A stretch of 64,000 nt of DNA from Eledone cirrhosa (taxonomy: Eukaryota), in the NCBI GenBank assembly GCA_964016885.1, contig OZ024743.1, forward strand, positions 17,484,001 through 17,548,000, in the 5' to 3' direction. The position numbers were made by a program, and so were the translations under genes. Positions 99-61,926 of the stretch are shown here, piece after piece; the stretch's first letter is position 1; each line of letters starts with the position of its first letter. Under the pieces are notes generated by a model. That model was given only the letters and a program-made list of their open reading frames with translations, did no database searches and was not told where the DNA came from.

Positions 99-175
99 TA
101 TATATATATATATATATATATATATATATAAAATAAAATAAATAAGTCAAATGTTTAAAATTTGGCTTCGATTAT

Positions 176-232
176 AACTGCTATATATATTTCGGTGACA
201 GCCATCTTTGGCTGTGTCCTCTTCAGGCAGTC
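176..232 (-). ncRNA. Type I hammerhead ribozyme motif (PLE pLTR)
   Basis: Minus strand reads GACUGC-CUGAAGA-GGACACAGCC-AAAGAU-GGCUGUCACC-GAA-AUAUAUAU-A-GCAGUU: intact core, stems I and II, palindromic stem III. Confidence 0.85.
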
Positions 233-1589
233 GGAATTAGTGTGGTAGAGACGAGTACACATGTTGTTTAGGTGTATAACTTTGTCAATACTCTGATATG
301 CCCAGTTCCTGTTTGGGTTGTTATTTCACTGAGGAACTCGAATCATATGAATTTAAACAAACGAATTTCAGCGTCAAAGGGCCTCTTCTCCTCTCATTGG
401 TCAGTTGTTAGAACATTCCTCGGTCAAAAGTCTATAGAAATTCGTTCTGAGGTAAGCCAGTCTGTAGTTGTTGTTCTTGTTATTGTTAGGTACATTCTCA
501 TGTTGGTAGTGATGTTGTTGTTGGAGTCAGATTTGAAAAATGGTGATAAAGTGGTAGAAGGAATAAGATGGTAAAGGAACAAAATAAAATAAAATAACCG
601 AATATAATGTGTGTGTGTTATACCCATCTCAATGCTATACAGATTTGTAAGGTCAAATTTCCCATTGGTCAGTTTTGAGAGCATTCCTCAGTCCAAAGTC
701 TATATAAAATCTTTCTGGGGTGCGGCTCCCTATAGTGTTTGTGTTTGCTATTGTTAAGTACATCAGACCTCTACCCTTATTGTGTTAGTGTTGTTAGTGT
801 TGTGATCAGCTTATGTCTTGCAGCTGCTGACAATTTAGAAGTATCTGTGTGTGTGTTTCTTCATCCTTCCTGCCACCATCTCCCGTGGTGGTGGTGGTAG
901 TGGTGGTGCTTTTGTTCTGCCATGTATATGAAGAAATAGAAGGCAATAAAATGAAGAAAACAGAAAATAAATAATAAATAGAAAATAAATGAAAAAATTA
1001 ATGAAAAAGTAATGAAGATTACTGAAAAATGAATATGGAAAATGAAAAATTAAGATGAAAAGTGAAAGTAAAAATGAAGATTCAAATAAAATAAGATGAA
1101 ATGTGTGTGTGCTATAACCGATCTCAAGGTCAGAAATATGTTGCATAGATTGGTAGGAGGAACAAGATGGTAAAATAATAAAACCGAAAAGGATAATCGA
1201 ATAAAATGTGTGCGTGTGTTATAACCAATCTCAAGTTAAATATAAATATAAGGTGATACAGTGATGAAAACAGAAAGCAAATAACAAATGAATAATGAGA
1301 AATCAAAAATCAAAAATCAAAAATCAAAAATCAAGTAAATTAAAATGTGTGTGTGTTATAAAGGTGTTGGCCAAATTATAAAGGCTGTGTCAGAATCAAT
1401 CTCTAGGCTATCATGGTGTCTGCTCAGCCTGGGTTGGTCCCTATGGCTTGAGAGCAGTTCCCAACCTATGGTGTTGTTACTGCCCATATAGCTTGAGGGA
1501 GGTCTGGCCGACAGGTGTCTACACGTTCTGGAGAAGTCCCTATAGCTTGAGGGGTGTTCAGATCTTATCGTGTTGCTATTGTCCATTCT

Positions 1590-3800
1590 GTGGTTTATCA
1601 GGCCGCTTCCACCTCTTAGTATCTCGAGGGTCTCATTCAGACATAGTTTGCATATGCAAGATCCCCCTTTATCGGGTGGTACTTTCCTGATTATGGACCT
1701 GGCCAGAGAGTACGGGGTCCTGTCCAGCTTAAGCTTCCAGATGAGGTCAGAGAGAGTCGTACTTTTCCTTTTGGCCTCTTTATTGAAGGAATGGCGATGG
1801 TTCTACCAGCAGTCTTTAAAGCTCGTTGATGTGGCTCCTATGTAGAGGTATTTAAAGTTGGGGGTTTTAACCCTACAAACGTATACTAGGTTCTTCTTAA
1901 GGTATTCATTACCAAGGGCATGATTCGGGGTTTCTGCAGTTGTAGAGGGCGGTCGACCTCTGGGAGGTCGACGTCTGTATGCCTAGATTGGAGTTTCCGT
2001 TAGGTGTTACATGGTGGTCTTCCCCCAGGCAGGGTGAGGGTCCCCGGGTCTGTTTGGGTTTCTTTGGTGGGCACTGGGTCCCCTTCCCTCGTTGCACATG
2101 GTCTTGTTGTGTGCTTGTATCGCCATCTTCTGGTTGTGTGTGGTTTTTAAGCCTACTCCTGTTGATGCTAGCTATGTGGTGGGCCAGATTTCTCGTGGTG
2201 GAATACGAGAGCTTCACAGTGTGTCTTTTGAAGATCTTGTGGTATCTATGGTCCCTCGGGAAGCATTTATCAAGCACTCCAAAGAATTATCGGGCCAAGC
2301 TGTTCTTTAGGGCCGCTGAGTAGGCTGTGTTGTACCACGTGATTTTTCTGTGTCTTCTCCTATATGTGTGTGTCGGGGGCGACGTGAGTTGTTGGCGATT
2401 TATTGTTTCCCGCATTGTTGCTTCCCCTTTGGGCGCAATGCGTTTTGCTATCTTCACGGCCCGAATCTGTGGGGTGGTCGTTGCCCGCGCTGGGAGATCT
2501 ACCGTGGGGTGGTCCCCCGTTTCAGCCCCCACGTGTCCTGCGGTTGGAGTCGTCGGGCCTGGGGTGGTTAGTATCACCCCGGAGTCTGCTACTGATATTG
2601 GGTTTCATCTCATGTTAAAGCGTACTCGTCACCAACGCCCGTGTGGTGGTGGCGGGCTCATGGTGCCTATATGTTTTTGTTCTGCCTGTATTGTTAGGGT
2701 CCTCACCCCGCCCAGACAAGGCGTGTGTGGGTGCCCGTTGGGCCAGCCTCATCCCGGTGTTTCGCACTATATGTTATAATTTGGCCATGTGCCGCCTTAT
2801 TTAGAGCTGCGTTGTAATATTCCGCTTTGTTATCAAATATTTCCTTACTTGCGGACAGGCTGGAGATCCTGTCCGAGACACTCTTCACCACAGCCTTGGT
2901 TATGGATCCAGGGTGGTTTGACTCGGCGTTAACATGCACGAGTTTCTCGTTGGGCTTGTGGTTGGGGTAGTATTGTTCGGTGTTCAGGTGGTTTAGGGTG
3001 GTGTCTAGGAAGTTGACTACCTTTCTATTTGTGTCTTGTTCTATACTGAGCCCCTGGTTGTTAAAGAAATGGCGAATACGCCTCCTCATTCCCTCCAACA
3101 TTTTGGTGCTGTGGTCATATACTATGAATAGAGCATCGTCACCATATAATCCCCCACTCAAGCAGGGGATTTAATCTGTTATCTGCTCCAGCATGAATAG
3201 CCCAACCAGGTCCGTTACCTGTGCTGAGTCGCTGGAGCTCATCGTGATGTCAAATATATTTGGCCAATCACTCCTGGTCCAAAGGTCTCCATAGAAACGC
3301 ATTAAGGTCTTTCTTGCGGCGTGGATGATGTTCACCTCCTCTCGGGTTAGGTCTGTATTGGACATCGCTAAAAATAGGGTCTTATTGAGTACTATGGGTG
3401 AGATTGAGGAGTAGTAGCCTGCGATATCCAATTGCATAAAGCTGGTCTTACTTTTCTCATGTAGTACCTTAAATCATTCTATTACCTCTCCCGTGCATGA
3501 CCATTGCTGTATTCTAGTTTTTTTCCGAAGCTTGGGTAGAACCCTATCTAGTATTCTTTTACTGACGATCCCTAGGTCAGATCTAGAGGGGGCTATTAGT
3601 CTGACAGGGTGGTCGAACTTAAGGTTTGGCTTGTGTTCTTTAAGGGTAATCCGCGGCTCTCTTGGTTGGTATGGGCCGTCCTGTCCTCTATGCCGAGTCC
3701 AGATATAATCATGTAAGCTGTGGCATTGATCTCATCCAGAGTAAATCCAGGTGTGTTTTTTAAGCACTTCCTCAGTTTCCTGAGAATTAGCTCAGTTACG
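1590..3800 (-). pseudogene. PLE RT + GIY-YIG ORF remnant with frameshifts and stops
   Basis: ORF pieces 3171-3437, 2703-3161, 2287-2577 and 1909-2277 are collinear with the intact ORF at 13254-14744. Confidence 0.88.
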
Positions 3801-61300: not shown

Positions 61301-61640
61301 CAATAAACATACATCATCATTTCAGAAGATGGCATATAGAAGTGAAGGTATGTATATCTCCTCTGATAATTTATAATATGTCTTTTTACATATATCTTTA
61401 AAATGATATACATACCAACACACACATATATATCCCAGAAACAATCGTAAAATGATGATTTTTATCAATATAAGAAAGCTGTTCTTTTTTTTGTATTCAT
61501 TGTTTTTATTAATTTATCTCTAATCTGTTTTTCTATGATTTTTATCGTTAAATTTTAAATGCATTTTCTCTTTTCATGATATCTTCTATATTTGGATTAC
61601 ATTGAGTTCTTCATACGGATTCGACACTACCGTTTATTGT
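58384..61640 (+). mobile_element. Penelope-like element 4 (Nematis-like), 5'-truncated, decayed; 3' boundary uncertain
   Basis: ORF 58358-59308 holds the RT (GGLYRDD, NFLDITMDL). VTWYN near 59636; CNC..CPL.GNC and YIG near 60110-60220. Confidence 0.85.
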
Positions 61641-61770
61641 GGTAGATGTATCTACATATATATATGTATATATTTATTAAAATAACAGATAAAAGTTTAA
61701 GCAATGAATCGATTATCTTAGTCTTCATATTTATTATTATTACTATTAATATATATATATATATATATAT

Positions 61771-61926
61771 GCAAAAGTTCTATTTAAAATTGTTGGGATG
61801 CAACAAATAAATATTTTTTATAACTGATATAAAGCACTCGACAAGTATTTGGAGTAGATATACGATATTAATAAATGGAAACTAAATATGGTTTTATAAA
61901 TATAGTTTCCATTTATTAATATCGTA
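61771..61926. mobile_element. Small head-to-head pair, same family as 11664-12017
   Basis: tacgatattaataaatggaaacta pairs with tagtttccatttattaatatcgta; sits in (TA)n. Confidence 0.7.

What the first reader, a model, noticed from the sequence alone, without database searches (positions are those of the whole stretch)
126..61926. Penelope-like elements repeatedly occur as head-to-head inverted pairs in (TA)n, at every size scale
Seen: the same architecture occurs at 126-5440, 7665-12915, 11664-12017, 15523-15882, 16253-16617, 16746-18160, 55790-57807 and 61771-61926. Two 5'-truncated copies of one family are joined at their truncated 5' ends, with 3' ends pointing outward, usually into TA-rich sequence. 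At least five families are involved, and some junctions show microhomology (gctatt near 9205, acacac near 16860). Known: PLEs form tandem and inverted insertions and their RT is the sister of telomerase RT. Inference: both ends of a break in the strand-symmetric (TA)n target are extended from element RNA and the two cDNAs are then joined. That would make such pairs a frequent product and seed the genome with fold-back, dsRNA-forming DNA.
Basis: partly seen in the sequence, partly recalled or inferred. Interest (0 to 1): 0.75.

Follow-up and report, generated by a model that had tools for sequence, protein, structure and literature searches.

The report
Penelope insertions as one-tailed inverted pairs
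These back-to-back repeats are the already described footprint of Penelope-type jumping genes in TA repeats, and because every intact pair has one arm with a short extra tail and one without, both cut DNA ends likely start copying the element's RNA at two different fixed points before the two copies are joined.

Summary
Real, genome-wide and already described. All eight structures are confirmed, plus a probable ninth junction at 13112/13113. They belong to Hydra-, Neptune- and Nematis-like Penelope-like elements (PLEs). Among the first 100 exact motif hits on one chromosome for each of four families, neighbours within 5 kb were 81 head-to-head, 7 tail-to-tail and 12 tandem; a (TAA)n-targeting LINE gave 0/0/10. 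Head-to-head copies, a one-sided 'tail' and (TA)n targeting are in print (PMC8557442, PMC3846280). What the counts add: 114 of 114 simple joined pairs have exactly one tailed arm. Either arm can be the longer one, tail-only arms exist, paired arms are about 2.5 times closer to each other than to other copies, and junctions are enriched for microhomology. This rejects independent insertion and simple fold-back. It favours one event in which both target ends prime on element RNA at two different start sites. That matches two start sites and extension of both strands seen in vitro (PMC11167929). This scan noted the same footprint before elsewhere in this genome.

The parts
97..130 (.). (TA)n flank of pair A
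128..3793 (-). Family A (Hydra-type) long tail-less arm; RT 3674-2770, GIY-YIG 1916-1593, hammerhead-like core near its 3' end
3794..3807 (.). about 14 nt of duplicated filler at the A junction; bridged by one unitig of run X1 (3702-3858, 1 difference)
3808..5440 (+). Family A tailed arm; tail about 5340-5440
5441..5488 (.). (TA)n flank of pair A
7614..9208 (-). Family B (Hydra-type) shorter arm, with about 55 nt of extension beyond the partner's end (tail inferred from the window only)
9207..12914 (+). Family B long tail-less arm, broken RT-EN ORF 9206-11255; 2-nt overlap (CT) with the left arm
11664..12017 (.). Family H pair nested in B's 3' UTR: tailed arm 11664-11890 (-), tail-less arm 11891-12017 (+), hammerhead-like core at 11918
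13030..13112 (-). likely inverted arm of family C (same segment sits inverted at the 5' side of 3 of 13 other C copies)
13113..15526 (+). Family C (Hydra-type): open 543-aa RT-GIY-YIG frame 13113-14744, then its own TA/TG-rich 3' UTR, into which pair D is inserted
15527..15882 (.). Family D (Neptune-type) pair: tail-less arm 15527-15718 (-), tailed arm 15718-15882 (+)
16255..16617 (.). Family E (Neptune-type) pair: tail-less arm (-) and tailed arm (+), both starting at the family's common 5' end near 16399
16746..18160 (.). Family F (Nematis-like endonuclease) pair: tailed arm 16746-16865 (-), tail-less arm 16861-18160 (+), 5-nt overlap
55790..57808 (.). Family G (68% like F) pair: long tailed arm 55790 to about 57410 (-), short arm 57415-57808 (+) whose 3' end is missing
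57806..58147 (+). short tailed family-A copy beginning with a 36-bp perfect palindrome (57806-57841) at the family's common 5' end
58235..58373 (-). unpaired tail-less family-E end
58421..61750 (+). Hydra-type copy (68% like B), no inverted partner found; 3' limit approximate
61771..61924 (.). H-related mini pair: tailed arm 61771-61887 (-), tail-less arm to 61924 (+)
21642..43034 (+). control: nested non-LTR (LINE) copies in (TAA)n, all in one direction; no local inverted arms in 21500-43200

Best explanation
Each head-to-head pair is likely one Penelope-like insertion event in which both cut strands of an AT-rich target prime reverse transcription on element RNA at two different fixed start sites, after which the two cDNA ends are likely joined by end-joining. 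One start is at the end of the pseudo-LTR (tail-less arm); the other is 40-96 nt further along, towards the start of the ORF (tailed arm). Each copy stops on its own or runs to the RNA's 5' end, which would explain the family-specific common 5' ends. Joining is blunt, through 1-6 nt of microhomology, or with short filler. Shown: orientation bias, one-tail rule, either arm longer, tail-only arms, shared private variants, microhomology excess. Inferred: dual priming, a two-enzyme complex, that the common 5' ends are transcription starts, and the joining pathway.
For: Orientation 81:7:12 against 0:0:10 for the LINE control. One tail per pair: D 34/34, E 23/23, F 14/14, A 24/24 and 19/19 new A pairs; unpaired ends come in both types. 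The tail-less arm reaches further 5' in 34, the tailed arm in 27, within 10 nt in 26 of 87 junctions; the 34 cannot be copy-backs, since neither arm contains the other. Tail-only arms: 3, more (L208, L243, L252, L258, L270). Arm difference within pairs 1.3-3.7% against 3.4-8.4% between pairs; private shared alleles 0.15-0.50 per pair against 0.006-0.022. Mean microhomology 1.69 against 0.67 nt simulated, 19 of 42 direct junctions with 2 nt or more, p=6e-6. In 2 of 2 D tandem copies examined the tail runs into the ORF's ATG 28 nt later. In vitro, a Poseidon PLE cuts and extends both strands, has two RT start sites that bracket the tail, and is predicted to be a dimer (PMC11167929).
Against: The same paper saw no difference in start site between the two strands, so the strict coupling is not reproduced in vitro. 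About half of family-A loci have no inverted partner. Several copies carry only a 20-40-nt fold-back without a 3' end (for example 57806-57841, L003, L207, L227), which fits snap-back synthesis or later deletion. Gene conversion between arms could also produce shared alleles. 24 of 66 junctions carry filler rather than overlap. Two loci depart from the rule: L092 (both tailed, arms 3.3 kb apart with other elements between, not joined) and L044 (an internal inversion gives one tailed/tailed entry). No RNA data; target duplications cannot be read in (TA)n.
Confidence: 0.72

Rival explanations
1. Self-priming: one cDNA (or an antisense template, as proposed in PMC3846280) folds back and is copied to make the second arm; in a hybrid form a tail-only cDNA from the other end supplies the tail.
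For: Palindromes at common 5' ends and 20-40-nt fold-backs. In family A the two 5' ends away from the common start lie within 30 nt in 9 of 13 junctions. Private shared alleles.
Against: Plain copy-back cannot give a tail-less arm that is longer than the tailed one (34 of 87) or tail-only arms. Near-symmetry is rare in D (1/18), E (2/8), F (0/15) and was 4 of 25 in new A loci.
Confidence: 0.17
2. A few ready-made palindromic master copies were re-amplified whole.
For: Five D loci share an identical junction on a GATC palindrome, and several E loci share a near-identical one.
Against: 66 of 90 junctions are not at two common ends and nearly all of these differ. At the shared E junction either the tailed or the tail-less arm reaches further. 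Unpaired copies start at the same place.
Confidence: 0.05
3. Independent insertions into the same strand-symmetric (TA)n tract.
For: The families crowd into the same tracts and nest in each other's TA-rich UTRs.
Against: Predicts head-to-head = tail-to-tail = half of tandem, (TA)n between the arms, at most half of pairs one-tailed, and no private shared alleles; all fail.
Confidence: 0.02
4. Assembly artefact (fold-back chimeras).
For: PLE inverted structures trouble assemblers (PMC8557442). The B junction was not bridged in the listed contig pieces of three runs.
Against: Arms differ by 1-10% with indels and by the tail. The A junction is bridged by a unitig in 1 of 3 runs of one sample, possibly the assembled one.
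Confidence: 0.01

Closest known systems
EN+ PLE insertion architecture (Craig et al. 2021, PMC8557442; passages, sections 6 and 11, two supplement searches and part 54 read)
   Same: [quoted passage not shown]
   Different: The parts read give no counts. They ascribe a 30-40-bp tail to endonuclease resolution of an intermediate. Here tails are 40-96 nt and one-sided in 114 of 114 joined pairs across three clade types.
Adineta vaga Penelope elements (Arkhipova et al. 2013, PMC3846280; passages only)
   Same: Head-to-head called the most frequent arrangement; palindromes at the junction; tail optional on one inverted pLTR.
   Different: Proposes self-priming on an antisense template; insertions there have readable target duplications. 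The arm geometry here favours separate templating.
Anolis Poseidon PAc in vitro (Frangieh et al. 2024, PMC11167929; parts 1-2 of 4 of the text read, supplements not seen)
   Same: Both strands cut and extended, AT-rich target, two internal RT start sites that bracket the tail, predicted dimer.
   Different: No strand difference in start site was reported, and the parts read give no model for inverted pairs.
LINE-1 twin priming (recalled, no call)
   Same: Two primings in one event give a 5' inversion; the tail-only arms here look like it.
   Different: In L1 the inverted piece normally does not repeat the 3' end and the second start is not fixed; here both starts are fixed and the arms usually overlap.

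Membership tests
EN+ Penelope-like elements | single ORF with PLE-type RT and GIY-YIG endonuclease | tested here: met
   543-aa frame 13113-14744 with YRDD and YIG motifs; Pfam GIY-YIG only E=0.008, below cut-off; long D, E, F arms
EN+ Penelope-like elements | pLTR/tail organisation, tail leading into the ORF start | tested here: met
   D tandem copies L121 and L122: tail reads into an ATG 28 nt later; not tested for other families
EN+ Penelope-like elements | hammerhead motif in the pLTR | tested here: inconclusive
   core pattern found in A, F, G, H but not in B, C, D, E by a simple pattern; no Rfam hammerhead hit
EN+ Penelope-like elements | placement in an RT tree with reference PLEs | not tested
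   motif comparison only
Hydra clade (families A, B, C and the 58421 copy) | C-terminal EN with CxCx5C linker | tested here: met
   B, C and the 58421 copy; in A's window copy the linker region is decayed and the motif was not found, A is assigned by 39-47% protein identity to C
Hydra clade (families A, B, C and the 58421 copy) | divergent RT4 and (TA)n target | tested here: met
   [19 protein letters not shown] in C resembles the Hydra rows of Fig. S1; flanks
Hydra clade (families A, B, C and the 58421 copy) | N-terminal RWK and DKT motifs | not tested
   window copies are 5'-truncated
Neptune (families D, E) | DKG motif, RT3/RT4 and long CX2-5CxxC linker before a C-terminal GIY-YIG | tested here: met
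   by eye against Figs S1-S2; DKG seen in D only; Neptune is paraphyletic in that paper, no tree made
Nematis (families F, G) | short CX2-5CxxC linker close to a C-terminal GIY-YIG | tested here: inconclusive
   EN spacing resembles the Nematis rows of Fig. S2; RT not placed
Naiad | N-terminal endonuclease | tested here: not met
   EN follows RT in A, B, C, D, E, F

The most novel reading that the evidence does not exclude
PLEs of at least three clades integrate by obligatory asymmetric twin priming: a two-enzyme complex bound to ONE RNA assigns the pLTR-end start to one target strand and the tail-end start to the other. In Hydra family A the trailing, tail-primed enzyme often stops about 4-23 nt behind the leading one (7 of 9 near-symmetric junctions in the first set, 1 tie, 1 opposite; 4 of 4 in a set predicted beforehand, where only one arm's 3' end could be scored). 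The tail would then be the spacing between two coupled RT starts, not a product of endonuclease resolution.
Probability: 0.4. Interest if true: 0.65.

Novelty: already known. Interest (0 to 1): 0.4.

Why it matters
The architecture is ordinary for PLEs. How it forms is still open: PMC8557442 calls an in vitro system for it the next important task. A one-tail rule without exception in joined pairs, tail-only arms and shared private variants give sharp predictions for the in vitro system that now exists, for the closest mobile relatives of telomerase. Extrapolating from the first 100 hits per family, four families alone would supply roughly 8,000 inverted repeats in this genome; any effect on dsRNA, editing or stability is untested.

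Tried and rejected
Idea that the tailed arm is always the shorter one: rejected (27 of 87 are longer). Target-site duplications: unreadable in (TA)n flanks. First junction caller over-called insertions of about 39 nt; rerun with a narrower window, and only one search is used. Rfam gave only microRNA-like matches to hairpins and TA repeats plus one weak bacterial sRNA match, all below gathering scores. No RNA holder listed; this is no evidence on expression. B junction not bridged in the listed contig pieces; a hole proves nothing. No long reads were available. Linking family H to an ORF failed. Near-symmetric junctions did not generalise beyond family A and were fewer in new A loci. The twin-hairpin motif of earlier notes fits Hydra-type A and H ends by eye but not clearly D, E, F. 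Paper searches found no paper stating a strict one-tail rule or asymmetric dual priming; subscription papers, including the older Penelope structure papers cited in those read, and the supplements of PMC11167929 and of the bioRxiv preprint were not seen and may bear on this.

Full report
Observation. The window lies on contig C4 of a 3.0-Gb genome; I did not try to identify the source. Self-BLAST and arm alignments find inverted arms at all eight places named. ORF direction shows 5' ends meeting and 3' ends facing out. About 9.7% of the window lies in local inverted matches, and none of it lies in the LINE cluster at 21500-43200. The overlap at 9207 is 2 nt against 11 other copies, the one at 16861 is 5 nt, and the A junction has about 14 nt of filler. 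The segment 13030-13112 is probably a ninth inverted arm, since it sits inverted at the 5' side of 3 of 13 other copies of family C. The TA/TG sea at 14880-15526 is family C's own 3' UTR, so these elements carry targets for each other, which likely explains the nesting.

Identity. By motif comparison with PMC8557442 (sections 6 and 11, Figs S1-S2), A, B, C and the 58421 copy are Hydra-type, D and E are Neptune-type, and F and G have a Nematis-like endonuclease. All have the endonuclease after the RT, so they are not Naiads. No tree was made. H has no ORF link.

Genome-wide test. Exact 19-21-nt motifs near the 3' ends gave 3950 (A), 12823 (E), 8812 (D) and 13110 (F) hits, and 4464 for a (TAA)n-targeting LINE. 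Only the first 100 hits on C1 are listed per motif. Among consecutive hits within 5 kb, the PLEs gave 81 head-to-head, 7 tail-to-tail and 12 tandem (p=1e-31 against one quarter); the LINE gave 0, 0 and 10. All 84 loci behind the 100 A hits were read; 44-47 have an inverted partner, some only 20-40 nt long. For D I read all 30 pairs, 2 tandems and 18 of the other hits; for E 20 of 21 pairs and 10 other hits; for F 17 of 18 pairs.

The tail rule. Each family has two fixed 3' ends, 96 (A), 40 (D), 64 (E) and about 47 (F) nt apart. In joined pairs exactly one arm has the longer end: D 34/34, E 23/23, F 14/14, A 24/24, and 19/19 fully scorable new A pairs (where 19 more junctions had one unscorable end). 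Left out before the count: L041 (duplicate), L127 (local repeat of one pair, one-tailed), L123 (not joined, one-tailed), L044 (internal inversion; one of its two entries is tailed/tailed) and L092 (both tailed, 3.3 kb apart, not joined). Four H pairs outside the window follow the rule too. Unpaired ends come in both types, so independent choice would give at most half. In two D tandem copies the tail runs into the ORF's ATG, as described for other PLEs.

Arm geometry. Of 87 junctions, the tail-less arm reaches further 5' in 34, the tailed arm in 27, and they are within 10 nt in 26. In the 34, neither arm contains the other, so both were templated separately. Some tailed arms consist of tail alone. 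Paired arms differ by 1.3-3.7% against 3.4-8.4% for unpaired couples, and share private alleles about 14-30 times as often. This indicates one event from one source, though gene conversion is not excluded. A, D and E have a common 5' end, used by both arms in 24 of 90 junctions and by unpaired copies; it follows CCAAT- or TATA-like words, so I infer a transcription start. Of the other 66 junctions, 24 have filler and 42 are direct, with mean microhomology 1.69 against 0.67 nt simulated (nine loci were dropped as duplicates, micro fold-backs, complex loci or microsatellite-spaced junctions). In family A, ends away from the common start lay within 30 nt in 9 of 13 junctions, mostly with the tail-less arm 10-23 nt ahead. 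I noted this as a prediction. New loci gave only 4 of 25 near-symmetric junctions, all in the predicted direction by 4-12 nt, with the partner's 3' end missing. This is a lead towards one shared RNA, not a result.

Mechanism. Most likely both target ends prime on element RNA, one at each start site, and the cDNA ends are then joined. PMC11167929 (parts 1-2 of 4 read) shows a PLE cutting and extending both strands from two starts that bracket the tail, but saw no strand difference, so the coupling is inferred from genomes only. Fold-back, proposed in PMC3846280 (passages), may account for the short 5' palindromes and possibly part of family A. Independent insertion fails on every count. One of two junctions tested was bridged by a unitig in 1 of 3 runs of one sample; no long reads or RNA were available.

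Known or new. The architecture, the one-sided tail and the (TA)n target are in print. Five paper searches found no statement of a strict rule or of asymmetric dual priming; two passages of bioRxiv 10.64898/2026.07.22.740005 did not bear on it. Earlier notes of this scan report the same footprint and reading elsewhere in this genome (nothing near this window). They are not independent support. Their twin-hairpin idea fits A and H by eye but not clearly D, E or F. Verdict: observation confirmed, architecture already known, interpretation partly supported; the counts make the mechanism testable. Interest 0.4.

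Noticed in passing
window 21642-43034: Two families of non-LTR (LINE) elements nested in (TAA)n, all on the + strand, 90-96% alike; used as orientation control. Clade not tested.
   Followed up: partly
window 14880-15526; L194-L206: The TA/TG-rich sea is the 3' UTR of family C itself; other PLEs insert into it, so these elements spread their own targets.
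   Followed up: partly
window 15975-16020 and 16658-16702: A 45-bp direct repeat (93%) on both sides of pair E, 235 and 40 nt from its ends; possibly a long target duplication.
   Followed up: no
window 49214-49464 and 18158-18243: Another inverted pair (91%) with a short TA spacer, abundant elsewhere; polarity and family not established.
   Followed up: partly
window 1-97 and 55613-55674: Hairpin-forming repeat end next to (TA)n, 82% alike between the two places; family unknown.
   Followed up: no
window 57806-57841; L003: Family-A copies with a short 5' fold-back joined directly to family-G-like sequence at two unrelated loci.
   Followed up: no
window 45132-49264: Decayed PIF1-helicase-containing element on the - strand (PF05970, E=1e-30), probably a Helitron (name recalled).
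   Followed up: no
window 5478-5653, 8085-8199, 36410-36460, 47502-47685, 53492-53710: Short dispersed repeat (SINE-like), one copy inside the left arm of pair B.
   Followed up: no
L127, L132: One-tailed family-F units repeated locally 3-5 times with TA spacers: local amplification after insertion.
   Followed up: no
L208, L258, L270, L023: Tail-only arms of family A often stop 70-73 nt past the tail-less end, within a predicted hairpin near the tail's end.
   Followed up: partly
window 13113-14744; Family C is young (top 40 matches 98-100% alike, this copy included) and this copy keeps an open 543-aa RT-endonuclease frame.
   Followed up: no
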